This document shows, in pieces, positions 1,778 through 50,673 of a stretch of 50,673 nt of DNA. The translations under genes were made by a program, and so were the position numbers. Origin of the DNA: Candidatus Hydrogenedentales bacterium (GTDB lineage Bacteria > Hydrogenedentota > Hydrogenedentia > Hydrogenedentales > CAITNO01); contig JBHEKP010000150.1 of the NCBI GenBank assembly GCA_041859375.1, forward strand, positions 1 to 50,673, written 5' to 3'. Numbering within the stretch: position 1 is the first letter of the stretch; the number at the start of each line of letters is the position of its first letter. The notes under the pieces are model-generated. The model searched no databases and was not told the origin of the DNA. It was given only the letters and a program-made list of their open reading frames with translations.

Positions 1778-1785
1778 TTAATCAC

Positions 1786-9340: not shown

Positions 9341-9450
9341 ACTATATCATACTTTGTTTTTTTGTATGGGATAAGTGTGTTCTTATTCAATCGTACAATT
9401 TGCTCGCAATAATTTATGTCAAGGTTGAGACAGAGTGGGAGGTGTTGAAA

Positions 9451-19183: not shown

Positions 19184-19768
19184 GGCGCTCTTTCAAAAAA
19201 GGAAACCCGGGATGGGGCGCGTTAGGGAACAGCCCCTTCCGGCGGGGCTATTCCATGGCCTGTATTGTACACGCGCGCCGCCCCGCCGCTCCATCCTTCC
19301 CCACCGGGGCAGGCGCGCCGTTGTGGACAACAACGCACGCATATATGAAATAAACAAAAAATGCGAATATGGCGCGCAAAAAAAACGATGACCAGCCGTT
19401 TCCACTAATATTTTTGTTGAAAAAAAGTTGTTTACAACCTATGATTTGACTAGAGCACAGCACTTATTTTGAATGGGCCGTGTTTCCACACAACCCATAT
19501 TCAATTTTTTTTGTCCTTATGTTTTTTGAGGCGCACATCAGTCGGCCTTGCAACGCACAAGGAAAACCGTGGTGAAAAAATGGATGGCGTGCACCGGGGG
19601 GGAAGCGGCGCTTTTTCCCAACCGCCACGCATCCACCCCCTCCACCCCCGTCCTTTCCCGCCATCGAATCCCCTCCCTTGGTTTCCAACAACGAACGGGC
19701 CGCACACTGGCCCGGAGTTGCGCGGTATTTTCCCGCACCCGTTCCGATCAAAAGGAGAATGCGAACTA

Positions 19769-28487: not shown

Positions 28488-28534
28488 CCATGGGCGCCCT
28501 CATCCAGGATTCAACCCCGTCAGGGAGCATGATT

Positions 28535-31500
28535 ATGAGCCATCAGACAATGAAACGGAGCCGGTTGCTGCGGTCCTATCTGTTCATCACCGCGGCGGCC
28601 CTGCTCGCCGCAACAACAGGCGGCGCGGAAGTGTTCTACTGGAGCGACTACAACTCGGGAATACCACCCGTTTGGGGTGGCACCGTGACCGGTTCAGCCG
28701 GCGCGGAGGGGGGGTATGTGCGCCTGACGAACACCGGCGGCAGCCTGCAGGGCACCTTGGTGCTGCCGAGTCCGGGGAAACCCCTGCCCACGTATAACTT
28801 CTACGCGGACATCTTTATCGGCGGCGGCTCCAATCCGGGGGCGGATGGAATGTGCATTGGCTATGGGAACTACGCCGCCAACGCGAATTTCGGGGAGCAG
28901 GGCATGGGCACCGGTCTTGAACTTCGCATTGTCACGTACACCACCCGCCAGATGCGGCTGTGTTACAACGGGGCGGTCATTGCCCAATGGGCTTTCGCGG
29001 ACGGCGACATCCACACGAACTCGTGGGTTCCCATCCAGATCATGATGACGGCGGACGGGCGCTGCACGGTCTACCACAACCGCACGCTTCGCCTCGGCCC
29101 GGTGGCTATTCCCGGCTGGGCCCCCCAAAGCGCGTGGCGGGTGGCCGTGGGCGCCCGCACGGGCGGCAACGTTGACAACCACCGCGTGGACAATGTGCGG
29201 GTGACCACCTCCGAACCTTTTGTGACCTCCATTAACCGGGCCAGCGCCAACCCCGTGGGCGGGGCCACCTCCTCCGTGAACTACACGGTCACGCTTTCGG
29301 AGCCGGTGAACAATCTCGGCACGGCGGATTTCAACCTGACCCAGGTCAGCGGCACGCCCACCGCGGTCATCGCCTCCGTGTCGGCCGCCTCTGTGAACGC
29401 TTCGGAGGCGTTCACCACCGCCGGTTCGGGCGGCATCGGCACGCTTGCCGGACTCGCCACCGTCTCAGGCGGTGTTTTGCACCTGACCGAGGCGACGAAC
29501 GGCCAGGCCGGCTGGTGGTATCACAACCCGGGAAAGGCCATGACGGCGTTCCATGCGACATTCAGTCTTCGCGTCGGCGGCGGAAGCAGCGCGGACGGCT
29601 GCTGGTTCGGCTATGGCCCGCAGGACACTTCGGGTGTTGACGGCTCGACCACGGGCTTCTATGTCGTGTTTGACAGTTACGACAACGGCGGCGAGACAAC
29701 CCCGGACATCACCGTGAGGCACAACAACAACACCTACGCCGTTGCACGGAGGGATTTCCGCGGGGACGTGTACAAAAACGTTTCGGTCACCGTGACGACC
29801 GACGGCTTGTGCACCGTGATACACGACGGGACGCCCATTTTCGTTGACCTTCCCATAGGCACCTATACCCCCCAGGCATCATGGCGTTTTGGTTTTGGCG
29901 GGTTCACGGGCGGGGCCAACGACCGCCATTACATTGACAATTATGCCGTGACGGACAACGCGCACACCGTCACGCTGAACACGCTGGGCGGGCAGGGGCA
30001 GCTCCGCATGAACCTGAACGGCGCGGTGGTGCAGGACAAGTACGGCGCGAACATCACCCCGAACGCCTTCACCACGGGCCAGGCGTACGACTTTGACTTC
30101 GTCGCGCCGACGGTGACGATTAACCAGGCGGCGGCGCAGGCGGATCCGGCCTCCGCGGCGCCCATTAATTTCACCATCGTCTTCAACGAGGCCGTCAACC
30201 CGGCCACGTTCACCAATGGCGACGTGGCCATCACGGGAACGACGGGCGGCGTGAAGTCGGTGGCGCTGTCCACGTCGAACAACATCACCTGGAACGCGGC
30301 GGTGAGCGGCATGACCTCGCCGGGTGTCGTGATAGCGAACATTGCGGCAAATGCCGCCACGGATGTCCTCGGCAACAACAGCCAGGCGGCCACGTTCACC
30401 GACAACGAGGTGACCTGGGATCCGCCGATATACACGGTGACCTTTGACCCGAACCTCGGCAATCCGCCGAGCTTCCCCACAAAGGACGTGTACGCGGGCG
30501 ACCCCTACGGCACGCTGCCCACGGTGACCCGCGCGGACTGTTCCTTTAACGGCTGGTTCACCGCGCCCACGGGCGGCAGCCTTGTGACGGACGCCACCAC
30601 GGTTACGAACGCGTCGAACCACACGCTGTACGCGCAGTGGACGATTACCAGCGCCTACTGCACGGGCGGCGGCGGCGGTGCCGGCGGCGGCGGCGGCGGG
30701 GGCGGCGGCGGTCGCGCCGGTATGGCGGCCGGGGGCGGGGGCGGTTCTGCGGGGACGGCCGGCGCGGACGGCGCCGGGCAGGTTTCCCCGCCGTCGGCGG
30801 GCCTGGCCGGTTCCACCGGCGCGGCGGGCGCGAACGGCGTGATGTATGGTCTCGGCTGGACGGCGGCCCCCGCCGGCGGGTCCAGCGCAGGCGGCGGCGC
30901 GGGCGGCGCAGGCGGTGTTGGCGGCGCTGGCGGCGCAGGCGGCACGGGCGCGCTGGGCGCAGGCGGCGGCGGCTCCTTTGTGCTTTCGGCCAAGGGCCTG
31001 CTTCGCATCACGGGCCCCGCGCTTCTTGACGTTTCGGCGGCCCCCGCGGTTCTCGGCGGCGCTGGCGGCAACGCGCAGCCCGCGGGTCTTGGCATGGCGG
31101 GCCAGAAGGGCGGCGTCCCCGGCGCGGGCGGTGCTGCCGTCTCGGGCACGGGCAGCGGCGGCCCCAGCCAGAGCGGGAAGGGCGGCAGCTCGAAGAAATA
31201 CGGTGACGGCACCTCCGGCGGCGTTGGCGGCACGGGCGGCGCTGGCGGCATCGGCGGCGTGGGCGGCTCCGGCGGCCGGGGCGGCTTCGGCACGCCGGGC
31301 ATGGTGAAGCTTCACGGATCGGTCGTTCAGGCCTCCGCGGCCACCTTCTCTGCGCAGAACGTGTTCAGCCAGCAGGCGAACCAGAACGGTGCGTGCACGA
31401 TAGTCTCGAACATGACGGCATCGGCGCGCAACGTGAACAAGCCGACGATGGAGCAGTTTGCGACCCCGAACCAGATGCCCGTGCTTGGCGCGGCGCGCAA

Positions 31501-33658
31501 CGACGCGGTTCTGACGCGCCCGACGAACGCGCCGTACGAGACGGCCGGCACGGCGTACCCGCTGATACCCACGCTTGAGGGCGGCCCTTACACCTACGGC
31601 TGGTGCGTTTCGGACTACTGGAACAAGGCCGAGGTGGAGTCGGCGATTGCGGACAAGACGGGCCTTCGGACGGTGTTGCTGACGCAGTCGACGACCCCGG
31701 CGTCGGTGTTCGAGGGTTACAGCCAGTTTGTCATGGTCAACTACGGCGCCACGGCCCTTGACAACATCGCGGTGAAGATTGGGACGAGCAGCGCTGTGCT
31801 CATCCAGGGCGCCTCCGGCACGCCGGGCCGTCTTGAGCCCGGCCAGGCGTGGACGACGACGGTGGTTTCCGGGACGGTGGTGACGGGTGGCACCGGGGTG
31901 GCCATCACGGGCCAGCCGACGGACCAGACGGTGAACCCTGGCGCGACGGCGACGTTCACGGTCACGGCGACGGGTTCGGACATCAACTACCAGTGGCGCC
32001 GGGGCGCGGACCCGATACCGGGCGCGACGGGCCCGAGCTACTCTTTCACGGCGCAGGCATCTGACGACGGCGCGGAGTTCCGCTGCCATGTGACGAACCC
32101 TGGCGCGACGCCGCCGTACTTCAGCGAGGTGTTGTCCGATGCGGCGCGGCTTTCCGTGAACCAGCCGGTGACGATCACGACGGAGCCTGTTTCCCAGTCT
32201 GTGGCCTACCAGACGCCCGTGACGTTCACGGTTGCGGCCGGGGGCACGCCGCCCTTCAGCTACGAGTGGGAGAAGGACGGCGTTGCGCTGGTACCCGCGC
32301 AGACGGGCCCGTCGTTCACGATAGCGTCGGCGGTGGGTTCGGACGCCGGGGTGTACCGGTGCGCGGTGCGCAACGTTGTGAACCCGTCCCCCTCGGCGGC
32401 GGTTTACAGCGCCGGGGCTGCGCTGACGGTTCTTGATCCCGGGATCACGTCTAATCCGTCGGACCTGAGCCGTGTGACGGGCCAGTCGGCGGTGTTCACG
32501 GTTCTTGTGAACGGTTCCGGCGCGCTTTCGTACCAGTGGGAGAAGTCCCCCGACGGCGCGACGAACTGGACGCCGGTCGGCACGGGCGATCCCCGGATCA
32601 CGGGAGCGGACACCTACGAGCTGACGGTGAGCAACTGCGTTGGTTCGGACGCGGGCTACTACCGTGTTCAGGTGACGGGCGCGGGCGTGGCGGTTTCTGG
32701 TTCGGCGCGCCTTCAGGTGAGCGATCCCGCGATTCTCGTGGAGCCGCTGCCCCAGACGGTTGATCCCGGCCAGCCGGCGGTGTTCACGGTGACGGCGGGC
32801 GGCACGCCCCTTGGCGGGGGCGACTTTGGCTACCAGTGGTACAAGGGCACGGAGCTGGTAACCGGCGCGGTTGGCGCGACTTACACGATACCCGCGGCGG
32901 TGTGGTCTGACGCGGGCAGCTACCGCTGCCTTGTGACGGGTCTGAACGGCACGATTTACTCGAACTACGCGCCGCTTGCGGTGCGCGGCGCGCCGATAAC
33001 GCTTGATCCGCAGAAGCCCGGGGACGCGGCGGCGTACACGGGCGACACGGTGGTGCTCGAGGTGTCGGCCGGCGGCGGGTTTGGGTCCGGCGGCGCCCCT
33101 GTGTTCGGCTACCAGTGGTGGTTTGCGACGTCCAAGGCCGCGGCGCCGCTTTCCGGCGAAACCGGCCCGGTGCTGACGCTCTCGCCGGTGGGGCTTGCCG
33201 ACGCGGGCGAGTACTACTGCGTGGTGAGCGACGACTCGCCGTACCCGGCGCAGTCGCGGACGGCGTTGGTGCAGGTTGCGGAGCCGCTTGCGATCACGGT
33301 TTACCCGCAGGGCGCGTCGAAGAACGTTGGCGAGACGCACACGATGACGGTTGCGACCAGCGGCGGCCTTGGCGCGGTGACGTACACGTGGAAGAGGAAC
33401 GGGACCGTGGTGGCGTCGGGTGTGGACCTGACGAGTTACACGACGCCGCCGCTGACCTACCCGGCGTACGACAACGCGTCGTACGTGGTTGAGATCAGCG
33501 ACGAGTCGACGCGCCCCGCGCTGACGACGGCGAGCGCGCCCGCGGTGATCACGCTTTTGAACGTGGTGTTCATGCCCGCGCTGGGCATGGCGGGCCTTGG
33601 CCTGTTGGCGGCGGCGTGCGCCCTTGGCGGCGCGCGCGTTCTGCGCGGGCGCAAATAG
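28535..33658 (+). CDS. Giant (~1707 aa) surface protein: 2 lectin/LamG-like domains, Listeria-Bacteroides repeat, Gly-rich region, Ig-like array, PEP-CTERM-like anchor
   Basis: The start is ambiguous (ATG 28490, 28529, 28535 or 28550); 28535 lies 7 nt after GGGAG. Signal peptide KRSRLLRSYLFITAAALLAATTGGA. Two copies of a ...GxxxLT...G......FxxxFxxxxGGGSxADGxxxGYG lectin-like pattern. YTVTFDPNLG...FNGWFTAPTGG...YAQW lies at ~30427..30650. The Gly-rich region spans 30660..31300 and the Ig repeats ~31895..33560. The C-terminus is MPALGMAGLGLLAAACALGGARVLRGRK. Confidence 0.8.
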   Translation: MSHQTMKRSRLLRSYLFITAAALLAATTGGAEVFYWSDYNSGIPPVWGGTVTGSAGAEGGYVRLTNTGGSLQGTLVLPSPGKPLPTYNFYADIFIGGGSNPGADGMCIGYGNYAANANFGEQGMGTGLELRIVTYTTRQMRLCYNGAVIAQWAFADGDIHTNSWVPIQIMMTADGRCTVYHNRTLRLGPVAIPGWAPQSAWRVAVGARTGGNVDNHRVDNVRVTTSEPFVTSINRASANPVGGATSSVNYTVTLSEPVNNLGTADFNLTQVSGTPTAVIASVSAASVNASEAFTTAGSGGIGTLAGLATVSGGVLHLTEATNGQAGWWYHNPGKAMTAFHATFSLRVGGGSSADGCWFGYGPQDTSGVDGSTTGFYVVFDSYDNGGETTPDITVRHNNNTYAVARRDFRGDVYKNVSVTVTTDGLCTVIHDGTPIFVDLPIGTYTPQASWRFGFGGFTGGANDRHYIDNYAVTDNAHTVTLNTLGGQGQLRMNLNGAVVQDKYGANITPNAFTTGQAYDFDFVAPTVTINQAAAQADPASAAPINFTIVFNEAVNPATFTNGDVAITGTTGGVKSVALSTSNNITWNAAVSGMTSPGVVIANIAANAATDVLGNNSQAATFTDNEVTWDPPIYTVTFDPNLGNPPSFPTKDVYAGDPYGTLPTVTRADCSFNGWFTAPTGGSLVTDATTVTNASNHTLYAQWTITSAYCTGGGGGAGGGGGGGGGGRAGMAAGGGGGSAGTAGADGAGQVSPPSAGLAGSTGAAGANGVMYGLGWTAAPAGGSSAGGGAGGAGGVGGAGGAGGTGALGAGGGGSFVLSAKGLLRITGPALLDVSAAPAVLGGAGGNAQPAGLGMAGQKGGVPGAGGAAVSGTGSGGPSQSGKGGSSKKYGDGTSGGVGGTGGAGGIGGVGGSGGRGGFGTPGMVKLHGSVVQASAATFSAQNVFSQQANQNGACTIVSNMTASARNVNKPTMEQFATPNQMPVLGAARNDAVLTRPTNAPYETAGTAYPLIPTLEGGPYTYGWCVSDYWNKAEVESAIADKTGLRTVLLTQSTTPASVFEGYSQFVMVNYGATALDNIAVKIGTSSAVLIQGASGTPGRLEPGQAWTTTVVSGTVVTGGTGVAITGQPTDQTVNPGATATFTVTATGSDINYQWRRGADPIPGATGPSYSFTAQASDDGAEFRCHVTNPGATPPYFSEVLSDAARLSVNQPVTITTEPVSQSVAYQTPVTFTVAAGGTPPFSYEWEKDGVALVPAQTGPSFTIASAVGSDAGVYRCAVRNVVNPSPSAAVYSAGAALTVLDPGITSNPSDLSRVTGQSAVFTVLVNGSGALSYQWEKSPDGATNWTPVGTGDPRITGADTYELTVSNCVGSDAGYYRVQVTGAGVAVSGSARLQVSDPAILVEPLPQTVDPGQPAVFTVTAGGTPLGGGDFGYQWYKGTELVTGAVGATYTIPAAVWSDAGSYRCLVTGLNGTIYSNYAPLAVRGAPITLDPQKPGDAAAYTGDTVVLEVSAGGGFGSGGAPVFGYQWWFATSKAAAPLSGETGPVLTLSPVGLADAGEYYCVVSDDSPYPAQSRTALVQVAEPLAITVYPQGASKNVGETHTMTVATSGGLGAVTYTWKRNGTVVASGVDLTSYTTPPLTYPAYDNASYVVEISDESTRPALTTASAPAVITLLNVVFMPALGMAGLGLLAAACALGGARVLRGRK

Positions 33659-42006: not shown

Positions 42007-44334
42007 ATGGTGCCGATGCTTTGCCTTGGAGTGCTGCTTTCCGCGGGCGCCGCCGCGCCGGTCGTGGCCGGTCCGTCCGCCATCCTTTACGCGCGCGAGC
42101 TCGCGGACGGCGGCATCGCCGCCGCCACACCGGGGGAATACCATTTCTGGGTGTGGGCCGCGCCGGGGGGCACGGCGACCCTGACGGTGGGCGGCCGCGC
42201 CCTGGAGGCGGCCGTGCCCAGGCAGGAAAAGCAGGAGCGGGGGCAGGAGGCAATGTGGGCCTATGCGGGCGCGCTGAAGCTGGACAGGGAGGCCGCCGCG
42301 GTGAAACTGGACGGCGCCTGGGCGGTGGCGCTAAGCGCCCGCAGGGACTATGATCCCGCGCTGGTGATGGCGGACATGCGCGCCGTGGAGGGGCCCCGCG
42401 CGGTGGACGACCGGCGCGTGCGCCAGCTTCGGCACACGGACACGGTGTTCATGATGCCCCAATACCGGAGCCTGGAGGAATGGACGGCAAAGGCCGACGG
42501 CATCCGGCGGCGCATGCTGCTGAGTTCCGGCCTGGTGCCGGAGCCGGAAAAGACGCCGCTCAACCCGCAACTCTCCGGTCTGATTGATCACGGCGACTAC
42601 ACGGTGGAGAAGGCGGCCTTTGAGGTTGTGCCGGGCTTTTTCTGCACGGGCAACCTTTACCGGCCCAAGGGCGACGGGCCCTTCCCGGCGATTGTGAACC
42701 CCCACGGCCACTGGCAGAGCGGACGCCTTGAGGACTCGGAGATGTGCTCCGTGCCCGCACGCTGCATCACCTTCGCAAAAATGGGCGCGGTGGCCTTCAC
42801 CTACGACATGGTGGGCTACAACGACAGCCGCCAGTTTGTCCACCGCTGGGGCGGGGAGCGGGAGAAGCTCTGGGGCGTGCACCCCTTCGCTCTCCAGCTG
42901 CTCACCAGCATCCGCGCCGTGGATTTTGTCAGCGGCCTGCCGGGGGTTGACCCCGCGCGCATCGGCTGCACGGGCGCGTCGGGCGGCGGCACCCAGACCT
43001 TCGCCCTTTACACCGCCGATCCGCGCATCGCCGCGGCCGCGCCGGTGAACATGATCTCCTCCACGATGCAGGGCGGCTGCGTGTGCGAGAACGCGCCGCT
43101 CATCCGCTATTCCAACTCGAACATGGAAATCGGCGCGATGATGGCGCCGAAGCCGCTGCTCATGGTGGCGGCCACGGGCGACTGGACCCGCGAGACGCCC
43201 CGTGTCGAATACCCCGCCATCCGGAGCGTCTACGCCCTTTACGGCGCGGAGGCGAAGGTGGAAAGCGCCCAGTTCGACTACGGCCACAACTACAACAAGG
43301 ACAGCCGCGAGGCGGTGTACCGCTTCTTCGGAAGGCACCTGATCGACCCCAATCGCGACTGGACCGGCTTCACCGAGCCCGAACACAGGAAGGACCCGGA
43401 TGAGGCGCTGCGCGTGTTCCCCGGCGAGGGCCCGATGGAGGGCTACAAGAGCATGGGCCAGCAGGAGGTCATTGACGGATTCATCGCCCGCAACAAGGCC
43501 AAGTGGGACGCGGTGCTCCCCGCCGACGCCGGCGGGGTGAAGGCCTTCCAGGAACAGTACGGCACGGTCCTCGCCGACGTGCTGGGCGTGGCCCCGCCCG
43601 ATCCGAACGGGTTGCGCTGCGAGCGCGCGGGCCGCGCCGCGGAACGGGAGGGCTGCATGGCCGAGCGCTGGGTCATCAGCCGCGCGGCGCAGGGCGACGC
43701 GGTGCCCGCGGTGCTTTTCCGCGGAAGGGACAACACACCGCAGGACGCGGTGATCCTCGTTCACGGCGCGGGCAAGGCCGCCCTGATCGACCCGGAAAAG
43801 GGCGGCCCCGGCCCCCTGGCCGCCGCGCTTGCGGCGAAGGGGAAGGCCGTGCTGGTCATCGACCCCTTCCTGGCGGGGGACCACCAGCCCCCGGCGGAAA
43901 GCCGCTCCCGCGACGCCATGAAGGTCGGCGTGTTCCCCTTCCTCGACACCTTCGAGCCCACGGACGCCGCCTGCCGCGTGCAGGACGTGCTCACCGCCGC
44001 CGCGTTCCTCCGGGCGCGCCGCGACATGACGGGCCGCATTGAGCTGGCCGGGCTGGGCGGCGCGGGGGTCGCCTGCCTCCTCGCCGCGGCGGTGGATCCG
44101 GGCATCGCCGCCGTGGCGGCGGACCTGGAAAATTTCCCCCTGGACGACGACGACGCCTGGGTGCGGGACAACTACATCCCCTGCATCCGCAGCGTGGGCG
44201 ACGCGCGCACCGCCGCCGCCATGATTGCCCCCCGGCCGCTGACGCTTTGGAACGTGAACGGCGCGGAGGGCATCGGCCGCTACGGGGCGAAACTCCTTTC
44301 CGGCGCGCCCGCGCCGGGGGATATGCTGCCGTGA
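42007..44334 (+). CDS. Secreted alpha/beta hydrolase (acetyl-xylan-esterase / dienelactone-hydrolase-like)
   Basis: Start at MVPMLCLGVLLSAGAAAPVVAG. The nucleophile elbow is GCTGASGGGTQT, after FPAIVNPHGHW. A second hydrolase-like segment is VILVHGAGKAAL. Confidence 0.75.
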   Translation: MVPMLCLGVLLSAGAAAPVVAGPSAILYARELADGGIAAATPGEYHFWVWAAPGGTATLTVGGRALEAAVPRQEKQERGQEAMWAYAGALKLDREAAAVKLDGAWAVALSARRDYDPALVMADMRAVEGPRAVDDRRVRQLRHTDTVFMMPQYRSLEEWTAKADGIRRRMLLSSGLVPEPEKTPLNPQLSGLIDHGDYTVEKAAFEVVPGFFCTGNLYRPKGDGPFPAIVNPHGHWQSGRLEDSEMCSVPARCITFAKMGAVAFTYDMVGYNDSRQFVHRWGGEREKLWGVHPFALQLLTSIRAVDFVSGLPGVDPARIGCTGASGGGTQTFALYTADPRIAAAAPVNMISSTMQGGCVCENAPLIRYSNSNMEIGAMMAPKPLLMVAATGDWTRETPRVEYPAIRSVYALYGAEAKVESAQFDYGHNYNKDSREAVYRFFGRHLIDPNRDWTGFTEPEHRKDPDEALRVFPGEGPMEGYKSMGQQEVIDGFIARNKAKWDAVLPADAGGVKAFQEQYGTVLADVLGVAPPDPNGLRCERAGRAAEREGCMAERWVISRAAQGDAVPAVLFRGRDNTPQDAVILVHGAGKAALIDPEKGGPGPLAAALAAKGKAVLVIDPFLAGDHQPPAESRSRDAMKVGVFPFLDTFEPTDAACRVQDVLTAAAFLRARRDMTGRIELAGLGGAGVACLLAAAVDPGIAAVAADLENFPLDDDDAWVRDNYIPCIRSVGDARTAAAMIAPRPLTLWNVNGAEGIGRYGAKLLSGAPAPGDMLP

Positions 44335-45173
44335 GCGCAGCCGGTGAAGGATTGGCGCGCGACGCCCTGCTCCACATCACCGACCTGCATTTTTGGAAGG
44401 TGACCTGGAACCCGCTGCGCCTGATGGGCAAGCGCTTTCTGGGCAACGCCAACCTGTGGCTGCGCCGCCGCCGCCAGGTGAACATTGACCTTGCCGAAAC
44501 CACGGCGGACCTGCTGTGCGCCTCGGGCGTGCGGTGCGTGGTTGCGGGCGGCGACCTCACCACCACCTCGCTGGCGGAGGAGTACGCCCGCGCGGCGGAA
44601 TTCCTTGACCTGCTGGCGGCGCGCGGGCTCCGGGTGTGGGCCATTCCCGGCAACCACGATGTGTACACCTTCGGTTCGGCCCGGAGGGACCTGTTCCGCC
44701 GCTTCCTGGGGCGCTTCATGCCCGGCGACGCCCTGCCCGTCCGCGTGGCGCTGCCCGGCGGCACGCCCCTGATTTTCGCCCCCACCACCTGCCCCAACCT
44801 GATCACCTCGCGGGGGCGCGTCACCCGCGCGGAAATCGCCGAAACGGCCCGGCTCGCGGCGGACAGCCCGCCGGGGCCGGTGATCGTCGCGGGCCACTAC
44901 CCGCTCCTGTTCAAAACGGACGCCTACCACGAGCAGCCCACCCACCGCCTGCGCAACGCCGCCGCGCTGCGCGACGCCCTCGGCGAAACGGGGCGCACCC
45001 TCCTTTACCTTGCCGGGCATGTGCACCGGTTCAGCGAAACCACCGACGCCCGCCACCCCGCCATGACCCACGTCACCAGCCCCGCGCTCTTTTACAGCCG
45101 GGGTGGCGGCTACTCCGAAATCACCGTGCGCGACGGCGGTTTCCAGGTCCGGCTCCGGCGCACGGGCCCCTGA
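44331..45173 (+). CDS. Metallophosphoesterase (calcineurin-like)
   Basis: The GTG start overlaps the upstream stop (GTGA). Motifs are HITDLHF, GGDLTT, IPGNHD, GHYPL and AGHVHRF. Confidence 0.85.
   Translation: MSAAGEGLARDALLHITDLHFWKVTWNPLRLMGKRFLGNANLWLRRRRQVNIDLAETTADLLCASGVRCVVAGGDLTTTSLAEEYARAAEFLDLLAARGLRVWAIPGNHDVYTFGSARRDLFRRFLGRFMPGDALPVRVALPGGTPLIFAPTTCPNLITSRGRVTRAEIAETARLAADSPPGPVIVAGHYPLLFKTDAYHEQPTHRLRNAAALRDALGETGRTLLYLAGHVHRFSETTDARHPAMTHVTSPALFYSRGGGYSEITVRDGGFQVRLRRTGP
45155..45173. repeat. Direct repeat (left, att-like): last codons plus stop of the metallophosphoesterase gene
   Basis: CCGGCGCACGGGCCCCTGA matches CCAGCGCACGGGTCCCTGA at 47555..47573 at 17/19. Both sit exactly at the GC-content breakpoints of island 3. 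Confidence 0.6.
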
Positions 45174-45411
45174 ACGGGAAGAACCAAAGACATTGACAAA
45201 TCACAACAACCCTGATAGTTTACTGGCAAGTCGTGACAAGAGGGGGAGGTTGGCATGGCGTTGGGCCGCAAAAAAGGGAACCAGATGGTGAGAGAGGATA
45301 TTTTTACGGATGTTCGGGTTGTCAAAAGTGCATCGTATACCAACTCTGGAAGGCATTAAAACGATTTTTAGAAAACTAAATATATGCACAACGAGCAAGA
45401 AGGAAAGTTCC

Positions 45412-46311
45412 GTGAAAAATAATTTTGGCAAGTCAACAAATGTCTGCAACATATTTATAACATCAGTTGTGCTGCAAATTATCATCCATATAAATACGTT
45501 ATCGATTGCCAACGCAGATCAATTATATATAGAAAATCAAAAAGAATTAGACGAATATTATAATAATGCAATAGAGCGATTTTGTTTGGGAAAACACGGT
45601 GAACTAATATGTCCAGAAAGAAATCAACAAAAGCATTCTAATGTTTTTGCAATAAAATCAAGTGACAATTCGATAATTCTATATCTAAAGCATAATAATA
45701 AAATATTCATATTCGGAAGAGTAGATAACTCAAACAACATAACATACTCAAATATAGAACACTTTTCCAATTTACTTAAAAAGCCGTTTTGCGGTATAAA
45801 AAAATGGCCCAGCTCCAATAATTTTGAAGACGCGCACAATGGGGGTAAAAACATATTTTCAGATTTGTCGTCGTGTAAAATACCAAACAAACCAGACAAT
45901 TGCATAATGATTGCTTACGCGACTTGGAGCAATAGTATATACTTTAGCCGGAATGAAAATATTATGTCACCATTTCCAATCTGGCTAATAAAAAACAATA
46001 TTAATGACATATCGATAATATCGTCAGAAAATCCAAATATTACTATAGGAGAGATCAAAAAGACAGAACACAGAAATAGAATATACGCAACAATAAAATT
46101 TTATCATACAATAGATTTTTCCGCAATCAACAGCAATAAATACAAGAAATATACTCAAGAAGTATATCCATACTTTGACTTCAACGAAGGTCTGAAATTG
46201 CCCCCAAGTGGATTAATTTTGAACCCTATGTGTCCGTTAGTTGATACATACAAAGTATTTTACAATAAACATGGAGCGGTGGAATATGTTATGGAACCGC
46301 TTCGCGACTAA
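45412..46311 (+). CDS. Hypothetical secreted protein (island 3, paralog 1)
   Basis: The preferred start is GTG 45412 after AAGAAGGAAAG, giving signal peptide (M)KNNFGKSTNVCNIFITSVVLQIIIHINTLSIANA. An alternative ATG lies at 45310. Confidence 0.6.
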   Translation: MKNNFGKSTNVCNIFITSVVLQIIIHINTLSIANADQLYIENQKELDEYYNNAIERFCLGKHGELICPERNQQKHSNVFAIKSSDNSIILYLKHNNKIFIFGRVDNSNNITYSNIEHFSNLLKKPFCGIKKWPSSNNFEDAHNGGKNIFSDLSSCKIPNKPDNCIMIAYATWSNSIYFSRNENIMSPFPIWLIKNNINDISIISSENPNITIGEIKKTEHRNRIYATIKFYHTIDFSAINSNKYKKYTQEVYPYFDFNEGLKLPPSGLILNPMCPLVDTYKVFYNKHGAVEYVMEPLRD

Positions 46312-46501
46312 ATTTTCCCTGTATATGGATGTCCGGAACATGGAGGTTTACAGTGCTAAAGACATCGCCAAATTGGTGCTGCGTGCCAACGACTACCAAC
46401 TCTCGGCGCTCCTGCTGGTTCTGGAGCATGGACACCGACAGACAAGGAGAGTGTGCGGAGGAATATTGCGCAGATGAAATGCCAACACCGAGAGACATAA
46501 T

Positions 46502-47344
46502 GTGAAATCAATTGCACTGTGTTTAAATAAATTTTTCGGATTATATTGCTTAACTATTGTATTGATTATGTCCTCCGAATTGGCATATGCCACAAATAAA
46601 ATAATAGATGATAATGATAAATTCTCCATGGCCAAATCAATTGGGTTCTTCTATGTTGGAAAATATGGAGAATTGATAATGCCAGACAGTGAAGTTGTGC
46701 ACAGTAATTCTATAGTTCGCGTAACACGGAACAAACAGGGTGGATTAAATTTATATTATTCAGTGCTTGCCTTTGAATATAAACTTTGCGCCAAAGTTTC
46801 AAAAAATGGAGAATTCGTGCCTTTGAAATATACTGTGCATTGTAAGTCGGAGAAAGATTATTGTGGACCAACAAAATGGTTGCACTATGACAAAGACGGA
46901 CTTCCGGCATTTCCCCGGGCAAAGTGTATGCTTGCAGATTATTCTAAATTACAGAAAATAGGTGACATGCCAAATGATACGATAGGTGTTGTCTACATAT
47001 TGGAAAGAGGTGATTATTATTTTGGCAATCTTTCTTCTCCGCGTCATCCTAAAGCGATATGCTGGGTGGTAAAAAATAATGATAATGGATTTGTATTTAT
47101 TGACAACGAGGACAAAGATAACAATATTGTGTTGCGAGTCGATGGAAATAGAAAAGCTCACTGGATGGGTAATGCTTCGATCGAAGCAAGAGATTATTGC
47201 TATTGGATATATACAGACATGACAACAAAGCAACCATGTCTTCCTAAATATGGTACAATAATTAGTAATTATGAATGCTATCCAGAATCCCAAATTATAT
47301 GGAAAACCGCAGAAGGTCATTTTTTTGCTGAAGAAATTCAATAG
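46502..47344 (+). CDS. Hypothetical secreted protein (island 3, paralog 2)
   Basis: GTG start with signal peptide KSIALCLNKFFGLYCLTIVLIMSSELAYA. It shares GK(H/Y)GELI(C/M)P, C-G-x-x-K-W and W-(L/V)-(I/V)-K-N-N segments with 45412..46311. Confidence 0.6.
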   Translation: MKSIALCLNKFFGLYCLTIVLIMSSELAYATNKIIDDNDKFSMAKSIGFFYVGKYGELIMPDSEVVHSNSIVRVTRNKQGGLNLYYSVLAFEYKLCAKVSKNGEFVPLKYTVHCKSEKDYCGPTKWLHYDKDGLPAFPRAKCMLADYSKLQKIGDMPNDTIGVVYILERGDYYFGNLSSPRHPKAICWVVKNNDNGFVFIDNEDKDNNIVLRVDGNRKAHWMGNASIEARDYCYWIYTDMTTKQPCLPKYGTIISNYECYPESQIIWKTAEGHFFAEEIQ

Positions 47345-47554
47345 CATAAAAGGAACCTAATATGAATATTTTCAACTCTCGTCATCCAGTTGTACTGGGA
47401 GACACTTATTATTTTTGAATTTTTTTACCACATTCCATTCCCCTTAACGGCATACAAGTCATAATAATACAAAAAAACACCATTTTGAGGGTAGACGCGT
47501 CCGGAAGCGCAAGAAGCCGCCTCGATGCTTTGCAGGAACCGTAGTATTTCCCTT

Positions 47555-47573
47555 CCAGCGCACGGGTCCCTGA
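47555..47573. repeat. Direct repeat (right, att-like): remnant copy of the gene 3' end
   Basis: Partner of 45155..45173. It reads ...QRTGP* in frame, mirroring ...RRTGP* of the intact gene. Confidence 0.6.
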
Positions 47574-47619
47574 GGGCGGGGTTGGAAAAACTTCCCTCCG
47601 CGCCGTCTTTTTGGCCATA

Positions 47620-48525
47620 ATGCGGCCCATGGAACCGGCAACACCCGAGATGCCCCCCTTTGAGTTTGCGAAAAGGGATTATCCCCTCGCCCCGGCGACG
47701 CTGTACAACATCGGCGGCCCGGCGCGGGTGGCGCTGCTGCCGCGCACCGCTTCGGAGGTGGAGCAGGCCTACCGGTGGATGATTGCCCAGCCGGGGCCGA
47801 AGCTGGTGCTGGGCGGCGGATCGAACGTGCTCATCGCCGACGGCGGCTTCGACGGGGTGGTCTTTTTCACCACCCACCTCACCGGGCTGGAGCCGCTGGG
47901 GGGGGGACGGTACCGCATCGGATCGGGCATTTCCCTGGGCAGGGTGGTGCGCGACATCATGCTGCCCGGCAATTACGCCGGGGTGGGCGCGCTTACGGGC
48001 ATTCCCGGTTCGGTGGGCGGCGCGATTTACATGAACGCGGGCACGGTGAACGGGAGCACCTGCGAATTCCTGGAGAGCGTGGATTTGATGGGGCCGGGGG
48101 GCCTGCGCTCCGAGGCGGTCACCCCGGAGCTGTACTCCTACCGGGGCCAGTCCTTCTGCGGCCTTTACGAGGTCATCCTCGGCGGAACCTTCCGCTTCAC
48201 CCCGTCGGGGGAGGACCAGCGCGCCGTCTACGACCATTACATGCGCCGCCGCCGCGAGAAGCAGCCCCAGGGCCTTTGCTGCGGCAGTGTGTTCAAGAAC
48301 CCCCCGAACGACCATGCGGGCCGCCTCATCGAGGCCTGCGGCCTCAAGGGCCTGCGCCGGGGCGGCGCGGTCATCAGCCCCATGCACGCCAATTTCATCA
48401 TGAACGAGGACAACGCCACCTTCGCCGACGTCCTCGGCCTCATCCAAGCCGCCCGCGACGCCGTCCGCGGGCGCTTCGGCGTCACCCTTGAGACCGAGGT
48501 CCGCATCATCGGCGGAGAGGTCTGA
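47620..48525 (+). CDS. murB: UDP-N-acetylenolpyruvoylglucosamine reductase
   Basis: FAD-binding domain pattern (YNIGGPARV, VLGGGSNVLIADGGFDG, GIPGSVGGAIYMNAG) and a C-terminal GSVFKNP...GGAVISPMHANFI. The start is uncertain (TTG 47611, ATG 47620 or 47629). Confidence 0.92.
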   Translation: MRPMEPATPEMPPFEFAKRDYPLAPATLYNIGGPARVALLPRTASEVEQAYRWMIAQPGPKLVLGGGSNVLIADGGFDGVVFFTTHLTGLEPLGGGRYRIGSGISLGRVVRDIMLPGNYAGVGALTGIPGSVGGAIYMNAGTVNGSTCEFLESVDLMGPGGLRSEAVTPELYSYRGQSFCGLYEVILGGTFRFTPSGEDQRAVYDHYMRRRREKQPQGLCCGSVFKNPPNDHAGRLIEACGLKGLRRGGAVISPMHANFIMNEDNATFADVLGLIQAARDAVRGRFGVTLETEVRIIGGEV

Positions 48526-48579
48526 CGGGAGGGATGTTTTGCTCATAAAGAGAGTAAAAAATGTCATGAGGAAGGGCCA

Positions 48580-48762
48580 ATGAACAGCAGCCGAGATCAA
48601 CTTCAACAGTGGTTGAACGAGCCCGAGGGGTCACATTTTGAATTTAAAGAAGCAAAAGGCGGTTACTCCTTTGACAAATTGGTGGATTATTGCATCGCAC
48701 TGGCGAATGGGGGGGGCGGCACACGGGCTTGTTTGGCCGCCTTGAGGACAATAGCCGCTTAG
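48580..48762 (+). pseudogene. 5' remnant of an AlbA_2/Schlafen-type putative DNA-binding (divergent AAA) protein gene
   Basis: EGSHFEFKEAKGGYSFDKLVDYCIALANGGGG matches the conserved N-terminus of this family. After a G8 run the reading frame degenerates and stops. The remainder is replaced by the Xre-ImmA module. Confidence 0.55.
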
Positions 48763-48780
48763 CATTAGCCAAAGGGGCGG

Positions 48781-48809
48781 TTGACAAAATACGTATTATA
48801 ATGCATAAT
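48781..48809 (+). promoter_or_regulatory. Near-consensus sigma70 promoter TTGACA-17-CATAAT
   Basis: Hexamers at 48781..48786 and 48804..48809. A GAGGAG RBS at 48817..48822 precedes ATG 48831. Confidence 0.65.
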
Positions 48810-48830
48810 GTCAACCGAGGAGACTGTGCC

Positions 48831-49895
48831 ATGATTGGAGAAAGAATTAAACAAGCAAGACGGATTGCCTGTCTTTCCTTGCGTGGACTTGGCGAAAAAG
48901 TTGGCGTCAGCCATCAAGCCATTGCCAAGTACGAGAGGGAAGAAGACATTCCCAGCTCCGGTGTGCTCTTGAAACTGAGCAACGCCTTGAACGTGGGCGT
49001 TGACTTTTTCTTGCAGCCCGTTGAGGTGTCGGTGTCTCAGCCGGAATTCCGAAAGCACTCCCGTTTGGGCAAGAAACAACAGGATTCAATCGTTGCCCGT
49101 GTGGAGGACTGGATCGCGCGAAGCATTGAAGTCAATAACCTGATAACGTTGGAAGAACGTGTCGATTTCCAGTTTCCAGCGAGTTTTCCGCGAAAGGTTT
49201 CCACGTTCGAGGAGGTTGAAAAGGCAGCCATTGCTGTCCGGGGTGCATGGGAACTGGGTCTTGACCCCATACAGAATCTGACGGAGGTCCTTGAAGAGCA
49301 CGGAATCCGTGTCGGCTCATTGGATGCCGAGACCCATTTTGACGCGTTGACTTTGTGGGCGAATGATGCGATTCCTGTCATCGTTGTTCGTGCAGGTATG
49401 CCGGGAGACCGCCAACGGCTTAGTCTGGCCCACGAATTGGGTCATATCCTCTTGAAACCAGCCCTAGACGATGAAAAAATGATGCAGTGCTTTGCGGGAG
49501 CTTTTTTGGTGCCCGCGCCCGTTGCCCGGATGGAATTGGGAAATATCCGAAGCAAGCTGGACCCAATTGAGCTTCACATGCTCAAGCACAAGTACGGCAT
49601 GAGCATGTCAGCGTGGGTTGTAAGGGCCAGACAGCTTGGCATAATCTCAGAATCCACTGCTCAAGGCCTATTCATAACGTTCAGCACGCAAGGATGGCGA
49701 GACAAAGAGCCGGGCGAAGTCTTTCCCCCCGAACAGCCGAAAAGGATGACCCGCCAAGTAATGCAACTCGTAACTGAAGAGGTCATTTCCGAGTCTCGGG
49801 CGAAGGAACTTCTAGGCCGTTCCCTGGACGATTTCAGAAAGGCATTCTCAAAGGAACACGATGGATTCCCCACGGGCAATCATAACAGACGCTAA
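48831..49895 (+). CDS. Xre-family HTH fused to an ImmA/IrrE (COG2856) zinc metallopeptidase domain
   Basis: MIGERIKQARRIACLSLRGLGEKVGVSHQAIAKYEREEDIPSSGVLLKLSNAL is a Cro/C1-type HTH. HELGHILL is the HExxH site of the ImmA/IrrE domain. Confidence 0.85.
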   Translation: MIGERIKQARRIACLSLRGLGEKVGVSHQAIAKYEREEDIPSSGVLLKLSNALNVGVDFFLQPVEVSVSQPEFRKHSRLGKKQQDSIVARVEDWIARSIEVNNLITLEERVDFQFPASFPRKVSTFEEVEKAAIAVRGAWELGLDPIQNLTEVLEEHGIRVGSLDAETHFDALTLWANDAIPVIVVRAGMPGDRQRLSLAHELGHILLKPALDDEKMMQCFAGAFLVPAPVARMELGNIRSKLDPIELHMLKHKYGMSMSAWVVRARQLGIISESTAQGLFITFSTQGWRDKEPGEVFPPEQPKRMTRQVMQLVTEEVISESRAKELLGRSLDDFRKAFSKEHDGFPTGNHNRR

Positions 49896-50364
49896 CATCT
49901 GGATTGACTTGAACCGGGGTGGAATAACTGCTGAAGCATTCAAGCTCGATCTCCTGTTCAAGACACCGGACCTTGTGGCGCATGAGATTCTCTCACCTTC
50001 AGCGGCTTCATTGAAGCGGTCGGGGTTGCACGTCGTTGAATTGCCGGGCACTCGTGTGCTGGAAATCATCCAGCTGGCCCGAAAGTATCCACGACCCTCA
50101 CGGCCAGACTTGTCCGCGCTGGTCCTTGCTGCCGCAGAAGAAGCCATCTTGCTGACGGGCGATAAAGCGCTTCGAGCCGCCGGAGAAGAGGAAGGGGTTG
50201 AGGTTCGAGGCCTGCTTTGGCTGTTGGACGAGATGGTGAAATCCCAGGTGTTGACAGGGGGCAAGGCGATTGCTGTACTTCAACAGATGCTTGAGAACGG
50301 AAGCCGACTTCCTCAGGCGGATTGTGACCGATGCATTCAGGCTTGGCGGGCAGCCAAACGATAG
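49861..50364 (+). CDS. PIN-like (DUF3368-type) putative nuclease / toxin
   Basis: N-terminal IITDANIWIDL and C-terminal DLSALVLAAAEEAILLTGDKALRAAGEEEGVEVRGLLWLLDEMV match the PIN-like DUF3368 layout. It overlaps the upstream gene by 35 nt. Confidence 0.6.
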   Translation: MDSPRAIITDANIWIDLNRGGITAEAFKLDLLFKTPDLVAHEILSPSAASLKRSGLHVVELPGTRVLEIIQLARKYPRPSRPDLSALVLAAAEEAILLTGDKALRAAGEEEGVEVRGLLWLLDEMVKSQVLTGGKAIAVLQQMLENGSRLPQADCDRCIQAWRAAKR

Positions 50365-50372
50365 GAAGCAAT

Positions 50373-50588
50373 TCAATTCGACATTGAAGCGGTTGCCCTG
50401 ACAACCCGCCTCGTCTGGTACTCATTCAGGTCCAGCATATTTCGCAGTTCCGCCTGGGTGGTTTCCGGCAGACGCCTCAATCTGAGGAACTGCCCAACCC
50501 GCCTCCAGCCGCGTATTTTGTGACGTTTGAGCAGTTCAAGCACGGCCAGCCAGGTCACCTTGTTTCCGCGGCTTCTAACCAGGGACAT
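50373..50588 (-). CDS. Small hypothetical ORF (possibly a gene fragment)
   Basis: Only an open frame of 71 aa in a mid-GC region. No recognisable motif and no clear RBS. Confidence 0.25.
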   Translation of the reverse strand: MSLVRSRGNKVTWLAVLELLKRHKIRGWRRVGQFLRLRRLPETTQAELRNMLDLNEYQTRRVVRATASMSN

Positions 50589-50673
50589 TATCTGCTAGCG
50601 TTTTTCTTTTGAGTAGATATCGGTCATTGTTGATGTGTCATGCGAATATTGACCTTTGAGTCGGGCTTCAAAG

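What the first reader, a model, noticed from the sequence alone, without database searches (positions are those of the whole stretch)
45155..47573. Island 3: AT-rich cassette flanked by a 19-bp att-like direct repeat that reconstitutes the 3' end of the metallophosphoesterase gene
Seen in sequence:
- CCGGCGCACGGGCCCCTGA (last codons RRTGP plus stop, 45155..45173) recurs as CCAGCGCACGGGTCCCTGA (QRTGP plus stop) at 47555..47573.
- These are exactly the two points where GC switches between ~70% and ~30%.
- A 17/19 match at both breakpoints is unlikely by chance; my rough estimate is below 1% for the windows inspected.

Established knowledge: integrative elements that target the 3' end of a gene carry a copy of that end in attP, so the gene is restored after insertion.

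Inference: the 2.4-kb segment is a site-specifically integrated cassette whose recombinase is absent, either lost or supplied in trans.
Basis: partly seen in the sequence, partly recalled or inferred. Interest (0 to 1): 0.65.

Follow-up and report, generated by a model that had tools for sequence, protein, structure and literature searches.

The report
Recombinase-less gene cassette inserted after a stop codon
A 2.4-kb AT-rich segment in an uncultured wastewater bacterium (Hydrogenedentota) is a real insertion bounded by a short repeat of the upstream gene's last codons; a related strain has the unoccupied site, and the segment carries no recombinase of its own.

Summary
TCCGGCGCACGGGCCCCTGA (45154-45173) recurs as TCCAGCGCACGGGTCCCTGA (47554-47573), 18/20 here and 19/20 in a 99.4%-identical strain. 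No other copy exists in the window, and chance gives about 0.3% or less.

Independent assemblies and eight public runs cross both junctions, so it is not a mis-join. A low-depth contig from a strain about 6% divergent carries the empty site with one repeat copy: ...TCCGGCGCGCGGGCCCCTGAGCGGGGC|GGAAAAAC...

The segment is composite:
- A 1.4-kb cassette: about 300 nt of non-coding leader, the o2 ORF, a hairpin, and a 180-nt trailer.
- A nested 1.0-kb module (o1) bounded by GGATGTYCGG, which sister strains lack.

The same leader and trailer (81-82% identical) flank a distant paralogue at a second locus of the same genome. That copy is bounded by a roughly 300-nt repeat starting in the upstream gene's last codons.

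Next door, a 2.6-kb toxin-antitoxin-like island repeats 48-51 nt of the murB 3' end and is present or absent within the population.

No recombinase was found. Site-specific integration in trans is the best-supported mechanism, but it is inferred, not shown. o1 and o2 are secreted proteins of an orphan family with unknown function.

The parts
44331..45173 (+). Metallophosphoesterase gene (mpe), the target gene. It is 280 aa as called in public assemblies; the mechanical ORF starts at 44247.
   Evidence: Pfam Metallophos E 4e-10. The protein cluster has 20 members; the 15 listed all end in RLRR[T/A]GP. Synteny with the upstream S15-like gene is kept across Hydrogenedentota.
45154..45173 (+). Left copy of the direct repeat (attL-like): TCCGGCGCACGGGCCCCTGA. 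It encodes the last five codons plus the stop of mpe. With a gap it extends to CGGG at 45178.
45174..45317 (+). Cassette leader, part 1. Homology to the paralogous cassette starts at 45175-45181 (GAACCAAAG). Contains a promoter-like TTGACA (45193-45198), a 17-nt spacer and TAGTTT (45216-45221).
   Evidence: 86% identical to L040 9648-9789. Contigs with a different left flank join exactly at 45181. The promoter call is inference: the consensus scan did not list it.
45308..45317 (+). Left copy of the 10-nt repeat GGATGTTCGG that bounds the nested o1 module.
   Evidence: Joint 45307->46327 (skips 1019 nt, 6 nt fit either side) in X2, X6, X12 and X15. The site is continuous in L030 and L037.
45318..46326 (+). 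Nested o1 module. It is absent from 99.4%-identical strains. Its right end, ...TTTTCCCTGTATAT, resembles the cassette's right end.
   Evidence: A different, ORF-less module of about 103 nt with homologous ends sits at the same site in the paralogous leader in other strains.
45412..46311 (+). o1: a secreted orphan-family protein, 299 aa from GTG 45412. The mechanical ORF runs from ATG 45310 (333 aa). About 30% GC.
   Evidence: 25% identical to o2, E 2e-7. No Pfam, NCBIfam or PHROG match. The signal-peptide-like N-terminus is read from the sequence.
46327..46501 (+). Right copy of GGATGTCCGG (46327-46336) followed by leader part 2, running up to the o2 start codon.
   Evidence: 77% identical to L040 9780-9955. 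The small ORF across the leader shows no coding constraint. There is no RNA-structure signal and no Rfam hit.
46502..47344 (+). o2: a secreted orphan-family protein, 280 aa. Present in metatranscriptome assemblies.
   Evidence: Only its own 99% cluster appears among 5.8 billion proteins. The profile search finds 5 more distant members. The AF2 model has pLDDT 66 and no PDB fold match.
47374..47553 (+). Cassette trailer. Contains the hairpin GTCATCCAG-TTGTA-CTGGGAGAC (47379-47401) and then about 150 nt of conserved non-coding sequence ending ...GTAGTATTTCCCT.
   Evidence: 82% identical to L040 10959-11137, and the homology stops one base before the right repeat copy. Reading the hairpin as a terminator is inference (one search lists none).
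47554..47573 (+). Right copy of the direct repeat (attR-like): TCCAGCGCACGGGTCCCTGA. With a gap it extends through GGGCGGGG to 47581.
   Evidence: It reads 19/20 in L030.
47584..48525 (+). Right flank and murB. The ORF runs 47611-48525, but the start codon is uncertain. In the empty-site strain this flank follows the mpe stop codon after 7 nt.
   Evidence: NCBIfam murB E 5e-53, Pfam MurB_C and FAD_binding_4.
48475..48525 (+). Left copy of a second att-like repeat (the murB 3' end) that bounds the neighbouring 2.6-kb island. Its right copy lies beyond the window end, at L030 11739-11789.

Best explanation
Island 3 is a small integrated element with no recombinase gene of its own. It sits immediately after the stop codon of the metallophosphoesterase gene, in front of murB.

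SHOWN:
- It is bounded by a 20-nt direct repeat (18-19/20) made of the gene's last five codons plus the stop.
- A related strain has the uninterrupted site with one repeat copy.
- The element has two nested units. The first is a 1.4-kb cassette: about 300 nt of non-coding leader, the o2 ORF, a hairpin and a 180-nt non-coding trailer. The second is a 1.0-kb module carrying o1, which splits the leader, is bounded by GGATGTYCGG, and is missing in sister strains.
- The same leader and trailer flank a distant paralogue of o1/o2 at a second locus of the same genome. That copy is again bounded by direct repeats that begin in the last codons of the upstream gene.
- The neighbouring island repeats the 3' end of murB in the same geometry and is polymorphic within the population.

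INFERRED:
- These units enter and leave by conservative site-specific recombination between an element-borne site (trailer end + core + leader start) and a chromosomal site at the gene's 3' end.
- A recombinase encoded elsewhere catalyses this.
- The crossover lies near a TYCG...CAC motif that opens all three repeats, and the repeat keeps the target ORF intact.

The cargo is a pair of secreted, beta-rich proteins of an orphan family. o2 is transcribed in situ. Their function is unknown.
For: - Repeat real, unique and unlikely by chance.
- Junctions confirmed in independent assemblies (L030, L037, L038, L039) and by contigs of X1, X2, X4, X6, X13, X14, X15 and X17.
- Empty site. A 165-nt contig in X1/X4 joins the mpe end to 47584. 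Its sequence is GGCTCCGGCGCGCGGGCCCCTGAGCGGGGC|GGAAAAAC. It has one repeat copy, and the bases after TGA match the right-junction flank (GGGCGGGGTTGGAAAAAC) apart from small indels.
- No recombinase in the island or in the scanned window ORFs, and no tRNA.
- Paralogous cassette in the same MAG (L040). Leader 81% and trailer 82% identical, ORFs only about 22% aa identical. Bounded by a 206-nt repeat at 98% identity that extends to about 300 nt and starts at TCCGYCAC in or next to the upstream gene's last codons.
- Nested o1 module present or absent at one precise site, with a second kind of module at that site in the paralogous leader.
- Island 4. A 48-51-nt repeat of the murB end, in which both copies end in a stop codon. 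In X6 the main contig has the empty site, with the joint at the left end of the repeat. The island is at 25-45% of flank depth in X1, X2 and X13.
- The three repeats start with TCCRGCGCAC, TTCGGCGTCAC and TCCGYCAC.
Against: - No recombinase has been identified anywhere.
- No circular (attP) junction was seen. However, only assembler contigs were available, not raw reads, and contigs drop rare forms.
- The repeat lengths differ widely (10, 20-27, 48-51 and about 300 nt), and the repeat sequences differ between loci. This is not what a single strict integrase with one core would give.
- The shared start motif was defined after looking at the sequences, and it has 7 other matches in the window.
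- The empty-site allele comes from a strain about 6% divergent. It is a sister-lineage state, not an excision product.
- At the two positions where the copies differ, that allele matches the left copy. The direction of the exchange is therefore open.
Confidence: 0.6

Rival explanations
1. The repeats were made without a dedicated recombinase. Two routes are possible. A circular or linear DNA carrying a short copy of the gene end could integrate by single-crossover homologous recombination (Campbell type). Alternatively, insertion by replication template switching could duplicate the target. The island would then spread between strains by ordinary homologous recombination in the flanks.
For: - Repeat lengths are variable and locus-specific (10 to about 300 nt), and their sequences differ between loci.
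- No recombinase and no circle were found.
- The 206-nt, 98%-identical repeat in L040 is long enough for RecA-type recombination.
Against: - Repeats of 10 and 20 nt are too short for efficient homologous recombination (established knowledge of minimal homology length).
- Three independent repeats start with a similar motif and two of them end exactly at the stop codon.
- One 10-nt site in the leader has been hit by at least two different modules in two paralogous leaders. This points to site recognition rather than random breakage.
Confidence: 0.22
2. The island is ancestral at this position. The 'empty' allele arose by deletion between two fortuitously similar 20-mers. The repeat would then be a substrate for loss, not a footprint of entry.
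For: - Presence/absence data alone do not give polarity.
- The island is fixed in all strains at 97% identity or above that were seen. It is missing only in one divergent lineage at low depth.
Against: - The composition (30-50% GC against 70%) and the orphan genes mark the segment as foreign.
- A sister cassette with the same ends sits at a different locus.
- In the empty allele the bases after TGA follow the right-junction flank and show no trace of the leader.
- No relative, close or distant, has anything similar after mpe.
Confidence: 0.08
3. The 18/20 match is a coincidence of GC-rich sequence. The island came in by recombination in the flanking genes.
For: - Short GC-rich matches are common in a 70% GC genome.
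- blastn gives E = 0.04-0.4 when the match is scored against the whole window without regard to position.
Against: - Position-aware tests give 0/2000 and 8/3000.
- The empty site has exactly one copy.
- The same geometry recurs at murB and at the L040 locus.
Confidence: 0.05
4. Assembly chimera: an AT-rich fragment from another organism was mis-joined into a GC-rich contig.
For: The extreme GC contrast in a metagenome-derived contig.
Against: - Both junctions are reproduced in independent assemblies and in runs from several studies. Depth is even across the junctions: 17.6, 16.9 and 18.2 in X1.
Confidence: 0.01

Closest known systems
CIMEs (cis-mobilizable elements), e.g. the ICESt1-related elements at the 3' end of fda in Streptococcus thermophilus. 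They are defined as elements that have lost integration and transfer genes but keep attL and attR (PMC5704250, read).
   Same: - Flanked by att-like direct repeats at the 3' end of a protein-coding gene.
- No recombinase or transfer genes.
- Tandem or neighbouring accretion of several such units (island 3 next to island 4; nested o1 module).
   Different: - There are no remnants of ICE/IME genes. The unit is a compact, apparently purpose-built cassette (leader, ORF, trailer) rather than a decayed large element.
- It is multi-copy, with conserved non-coding ends and swapped ORFs.
- The phylum has no described ICEs.
- Cis-mobilisation could not be tested.
Integrase-borne genomic islands and prophages that target the 3' end of tRNA, tmRNA or protein genes and carry a copy of that end. 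One example is the Dehalococcoides islands at ssrA (PMC3146451, title and abstract seen). Tycheposons of marine cyanobacteria are another example, cited from my own knowledge.
   Same: [quoted passage not shown]
- An empty site with one copy.
- For island 4, the element-borne copy alters the last codon (…GGEV* against …GGE*).
   Different: - No integrase in the element.
- Size is 1.4-2.6 kb rather than 10-100 kb.
- The targets are stop-codon-proximal parts of ordinary protein genes.
Integron gene cassettes and CALINs
   Same: - Small single-ORF units.
- Recombinase encoded elsewhere.
- Insertion at a defined site downstream of a promoter (the o1 module in the leader).
- ORF-less 'empty' cassettes exist (the ~103-nt module).
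   Different: - No GTTRRRY or RYYYAAC core sites at any boundary.
- No attC-like imperfect palindrome was recognised.
- No intI or attI was found.
- The outer cassette has its own promoter-like box and is dispersed at unrelated chromosomal loci.
Phage morons (promoter-gene-terminator units of deviating, often lower GC)
   Same: An autonomous-looking transcription unit of lower GC than its surroundings, with cargo of unknown function.
   Different: - No prophage context.
- No PHROG match.
- The leader and trailer are not found in 2.9 million viral contigs.
- Bounded by target-derived repeats.

Membership tests
Site-specifically integrated element at the 3' end of a gene (attL/attR) | Direct repeat (att core) at both junctions | tested here: met
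   18/20 here and 19/20 in L030. The repeat is unique in the window, with chance about 0.3% or less.
Site-specifically integrated element at the 3' end of a gene (attL/attR) | Unoccupied site (attB) with a single repeat copy in a related genome | tested here: met
   The X1/X4 contig reads GGCTCCGGCGCGCGGGCCCCTGAGCGGGGC|GGAAAAAC. It comes from a strain about 6% divergent and is only 165 nt long at depth 2.6.
Site-specifically integrated element at the 3' end of a gene (attL/attR) | [quoted passage not shown] | tested here: met
   The left copy encodes RRTGP plus the stop of mpe. The 15 listed members of the 20-member cluster are full length.
Site-specifically integrated element at the 3' end of a gene (attL/attR) | Integrase or recombinase gene inside the element | tested here: not met
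   The island has only o1, o2 and a non-coding leader and trailer. There are no Pfam, NCBIfam or PHROG hits. None was found in the other scanned window ORFs.
Site-specifically integrated element at the 3' end of a gene (attL/attR) | Excised circular form (attP junction) detectable | tested here: inconclusive
   No back-joining contig was seen in 10 runs. However, only assembler contigs were available, and these drop rare variants.
CIME (cis-mobilizable element) | Keeps attL and attR but lacks integration and transfer genes | tested here: met
   As in the rows above. The definition is from PMC5704250.
CIME (cis-mobilizable element) | Derived by decay of an ICE or IME (gene remnants or related autonomous elements) | tested here: not met
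   No remnants were found. The cargo is an orphan secreted-protein family, and no related autonomous element turned up.
CIME (cis-mobilizable element) | Mobilised when an ICE or IME integrates alongside | not testable with these tools
   Needs a cultured host or time-series long reads.
Integron gene cassette | attC with R''/R' core sites (RYYYAAC ... GTTRRRY) at the cassette boundary | tested here: not met
   Neither motif occurs within +/-30 nt of any of the four boundaries.
Integron gene cassette | intI integrase and attI platform nearby | tested here: not met
   No integrase was found among the scanned ORFs of the 50-kb window. The two giant ORFs at 19469-27127 and 28490-33658 and several smaller ORFs were not scanned.
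Transposon / insertion sequence | Terminal inverted repeats, a transposase and a target duplication of fixed length | tested here: not met
   The best inverted match between the 60-nt ends is 9-10 of 14. No transposase was found. Repeat lengths are 10, 20-27, 48-51 and about 300 nt.
Phage moron / prophage remnant | Embedded in phage genes, or with relatives in phage genomes | tested here: not met
   No PHROG hit for o1, o2 or P0139. The leader and trailer are absent from viral contigs.

The most novel reading that the evidence does not exclude
The leader-ORF-trailer units may be a so far undescribed kind of recombinase-less mobile gene cassette in Hydrogenedentota.

In this reading the cassettes are promoter-bearing single-gene units with conserved non-coding ends. 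They insert at stop-codon-proximal sites of unrelated housekeeping genes and duplicate the gene end. They also serve as landing pads themselves: the GGATGTYCGG site in the leader accepts further ORF or ORF-less modules.

The result would be a dispersed, integron-like system for swapping AT-rich secreted-protein genes, driven by a still unknown recombinase with a loose TYCG...CAC core preference.
Probability: 0.2. Interest if true: 0.7.

Novelty: new variant of a known kind. Interest (0 to 1): 0.45.

Why it matters
Gene flow in candidate phyla such as Hydrogenedentota is almost undescribed. A literature search for the phylum name plus 'genomic island' returned one unrelated paper.

This one 6-kb stretch holds three separate insertion/deletion polymorphisms, each bounded by repeats: the cassette, the nested module and the neighbouring toxin-antitoxin island. 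Empty and occupied alleles of each coexist in public wastewater and biofilm metagenomes.

That gives a concrete, testable entry point for finding the recombinase. It also allows a test of whether small recombinase-less cassettes are a general route by which these 70%-GC genomes take up 30%-GC secreted-protein genes.

If the mechanism turns out to be ordinary integrase action on decayed islands, the finding is a well-documented example of a known process in a new phylum.

Tried and rejected
1. Small protein in the leader (67 aa in L030, 81 aa in L040). Rejected. Differences between the paralogues are spread 13/10/10 over codon positions. The frame is not kept across the conserved 3' part. Only near-identical copies exist in the protein database.
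2. Structured leader RNA or riboswitch. No support. The folding z-score is -0.02, only 1 compensatory pair was found in 69, and there is no Rfam hit.
3. ncRNA or tRNA as the target. The window has no tRNA or tmRNA. The L040 repeat region gave only sub-threshold Rfam noise.
4. Function of o1/o2. No Pfam, NCBIfam or PHROG match. AF2 with 2 sequences was useless (pLDDT 30). With 7 sequences it reached pLDDT 66, but there was no PDB match (best E 0.1, TM about 0.1).
5. Relatives with an empty site among species representatives. Not useful. The closest have 59% aa identity or less, and none has murB within 10 kb after mpe. The metagenome scan gave only one close locus.
6. Other islands of the window sharing leader, trailer or o1/o2 paralogues. 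None found.
7. The 29-nt unit CCGYCACCCCGCGCCTGTAGGGGCGGACC of L040 as a genome-wide REP. Rejected: it is absent from the window and from the other loci.
8. Flanking repeats around family members in other organisms (L042, L044). None found. The cassette architecture is so far specific to this species.
9. Integron core sites and terminal inverted repeats. Absent.
10. Phage origin of the leader and trailer. No match in viral contigs.


Full report
**1. The observation**

The repeat finder extends them by one base to 20 nt: 45154-45173 TCCGGCGCACGGGCCCCTGA and 47554-47573 TCCAGCGCACGGGTCCCTGA, 18/20. With up to three mismatches the consensus occurs nowhere else in the window on either strand, against 0.01 expected.

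None of 2000 shuffles of the two boundary zones reached 18/20, for zones of +/-40, 60 or 100 nt. Random pairs of real GC-rich 121-nt stretches from the same window reached it 8 times in 3000. In a 99.4%-identical strain (L030) and in several runs the right copy has C at 47567, so there the repeat is 19/20.

The left copy is the true end of a Metallophos-family gene. All 15 listed members of its 20-member protein cluster end in RLRR[T/A]GP.

The GC statement needs softening. The copies lie at the outer rims of the low-GC segment, but the first 150 nt and the last 70 nt inside them are about 50-55% GC. Only the two ORFs are about 30% GC.

**2. Organism and context**

Relatives of the phosphoesterase all come from Candidatus Hydrogenedentota MAGs. 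Public runs holding this sequence are wastewater, sludge and biofilm metagenomes from many studies.

The upstream S15-like gene and mpe are syntenic across the phylum. murB is not within 10 kb downstream of mpe in any of 29 species representatives. Outside the species' own cluster the closest relatives have no more than 61% aa identity. Species-level comparison therefore could not provide an empty site, and the C-terminal tail of mpe is variable among these relatives.

**3. Not an artefact, and an empty site exists**

Contigs from X1, X2, X4, X6, X13, X14, X15 and X17 cross both junctions at even depth. So do the independent assemblies L030, L037, L038 and L039.

In X1/X4 a 165-nt contig at depth 2.6 (main strain about 18) runs from the mpe end straight into the murB flank. 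Laying the right flank alone exposed its sequence. The three junctions compare as follows:

| Junction | Sequence |
|---|---|
| Empty site | GGCTCCGGCGCGCGGGCCCCTGAGCGGGGC then GGAAAAACTTCC |
| Left junction | GGCTCCGGCGCACGGGCCCCTGA-ACGGGAAGAACCAAAG |
| Right junction | CCCTTCCAGCGCACGGGTCCCTGA-GGGCGGGGTTGGAAAAAC |

- The empty allele has one repeat copy.
- After TGA it follows the right-junction flank apart from small indels.
- It shows no trace of the island.
- It differs from the window at 7 of 119 upstream bases, so it belongs to a sister lineage and is not an excision product.
- At the two positions where the copies differ it matches the left copy. Whether the left or the right copy is element-borne therefore stays open.

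**4. Anatomy**

The island has two ORFs, o1 (45412-46311 from GTG) and o2 (46502-47344). Both have signal-peptide-like N-termini and are 25% identical to each other. Neither matches Pfam, NCBIfam or PHROGs.

Strain L030 carries the island but lacks window 45318-46323. The same joint, 45307->46327, appears in X2, X6, X12 and X15. The o1 unit is therefore a separate, nested 1.0-kb module. It is bounded by GGATGTTCGG and GGATGTCCGG, and the unoccupied site reads GGATGTCCGG.

Without the module, about 300 nt of leader run from the mpe stop to the o2 start. The 67-codon ORF across the leader is not a gene:
- The paralogous copy keeps the nucleotides but not the frame.
- Differences fall 13/10/10 on the three codon positions.

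The leader is also not detectably structured. After o2 come a hairpin and about 150 nt of further non-coding trailer.

**5. A second copy of the cassette**

A profile of o1+o2 searched against 1.8 billion representatives found only five more proteins. The best of these, P0139, is encoded on another contig of the same MAG as L030.

At that locus (L040):
- The leader is 81% and the trailer 82% identical to island 3, while the ORFs share about 22% aa identity.
- Leader homology begins at window 45175-45181.
- Trailer homology ends at 47552-47553, one base before the right repeat copy.
- The L040 cassette is bounded by a 206-nt repeat at 98% identity, which extends at lower identity to about 300 nt. 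It starts at TCCGYCAC, next to the repeated last codons plus stop of the upstream gene.

Contigs in X1, X2, X4, X12, X13 and X14 with this other left flank join island-3-like sequence exactly at 45181.

In some strains the GGATGTYCGG site of that paralogous leader holds a different, ORF-less module of about 103 nt, whose ends are homologous to the o1 module ends. One short site has therefore been used repeatedly.

**6. The neighbour behaves the same way**

L030 shows that the 3' end of murB (window 48475-48525) recurs 2.6 kb downstream, 45/48 by blastn, and both copies end in a stop codon (…IIGGEV* and …IIGGE*).

The segment between the copies (about 52% GC) carries three things:
- an HTH-M78 repressor/antitoxin-like gene;
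- a PIN-like gene;
- the two halves of a disrupted AlbA_2-like gene (a domain assignment read from the sequence, not scanned).

In X6 the main contig joins L030 9098->11739, which is the empty site, and the joint lies at the left end of the repeat. In X1, X2 and X13 the island has only 25-45% of the flank depth. Here the empty allele is of the right-copy type, so the copy now completing murB came with the island. This is the textbook geometry.

**7. Mechanism**

The following steps are shown:
- insertion/deletion polymorphisms with one repeat copy at the empty site, in three cases;
- target-derived repeats that keep the upstream ORF complete;
- conserved non-coding element ends;
- absence of any recombinase, transposase, terminal inverted repeats or integron core sites.

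The following steps are inferred:
- conservative site-specific recombination by an enzyme encoded elsewhere;
- a crossover near the left end of the repeats, where all three begin with TCCRGCGCAC, TTCGGCGTCAC or TCCGYCAC.

This motif was defined after the fact and has seven other matches in the window. The widely different repeat lengths and sequences are the main argument for the rival explanation: Campbell-type homologous integration, or template-switch duplication.

**8. Cargo**

o2 is found in metatranscriptome assemblies from several studies. In X12 it lies on one RNA-run contig with the start of murB. This suggests transcription and read-through, although DNA carry-over cannot be excluded.

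The promoter-like box TTGACA-17-TAGTTT at 45193-45221 is nearly identical in both cassettes, differing at one spacer base. It recurs in a third context. It fails the E. coli-type consensus scan.

The 7-sequence AF2 model (pLDDT 66) is beta-rich and has no PDB neighbour. Function remains unknown beyond 'secreted protein of an orphan family'.

**9. Comparison and verdict**

The closest described category is the CIME: attL and attR retained, integration genes absent (PMC5704250). More broadly it resembles islands that target gene 3' ends.

It differs in several ways:
- it is a compact single-gene cassette with conserved non-coding ends;
- it is multi-copy;
- it is nested;
- it has no ICE/IME remnants.

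I rate it a new variant of a known kind, of moderate interest. The insertion, the att-like repeat and the missing recombinase hold. The recombination mechanism is inferred, and the '2.4-kb cassette' is really two nested units.

Noticed in passing
window 48475-50673, continuing in L030 9153-11789: 'Island 4' is a segment of about 2.6 kb and about 52% GC. It carries an HTH-M78 (spr1629-type) repressor/antitoxin-like gene and a PIN-like gene. It is bounded by a 48-51-nt direct repeat of the murB 3' end. It is absent from the main strain of X6 and present at only 25-45% of flank depth in X1, X2 and X13.
   Followed up: partly
window 48580-48762 and L030 11429-11611: These look like the N-terminal and C-terminal pieces of one AlbA_2/HTH-type gene. 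The toxin-antitoxin-like pair appears to have split them inside island 4. The domain assignment is my own reading of the sequence; I did not scan these pieces.
   Followed up: no
window 1615-1992 (after the RDD-family gene 697-1605): Immediately downstream of the RDD gene lies a diverged, lower-GC copy of its C-terminal 58 codons (55% aa identity, E 2e-20). It sits at the left edge of AT-rich island 1. This is another gene-end duplication next to an island.
   Followed up: partly
window 2800-4450 and 8600-12800: Two further AT-rich islands with orphan secreted-looking ORFs. One ORF (3103-4311, minus strand) has an HEVGH zinc-protease-like motif. Another (10770-12554) fuses an AT-rich Lgt domain to the GC-richer N-terminus of a DUF1559/N_methyl protein. 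They are unrelated to island 3 at the DNA and protein level.
   Followed up: partly
L040 9233-9404: Three tandem 61-nt units each repeat the last codons plus stop (VTPRL*) of the upstream gene. A fourth, degenerate copy lies after the cassette. They could be scars of serial integrations or a local tandem duplication. The unit is not a genome-wide REP.
   Followed up: partly
L040 17690-17860: Arrays of short tandem motifs (RTGGACGGG about 4 times, AATCCTGTC 4 times) are followed by a copy of the trailer hairpin (86% over 51 nt). They lie at the edge of yet another AT-rich island, which carries an SLFN-like helicase and an HTH gene. This may be a set of protein-binding sites at an element end.
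   Followed up: no
L030 11374-11425: A 50-nt stretch inside island 4 has 4-6 times the local depth and many different flanks in all runs. It is a multi-copy repeat of unknown kind.
   Followed up: no
window 45192-45223: In X13 the promoter-like box ATTGACAAATCACAACAACCCTGATAGTTTAC also occurs on a contig with unrelated flanks on both sides. It may be a reusable promoter module.
   Followed up: no
L044 976-2834: In another, unidentified organism of about 60% GC, two members of the o1/o2 family lie in tandem at native GC content and without flanking repeats. The family is therefore not intrinsically AT-rich or cassette-borne.
   Followed up: partly
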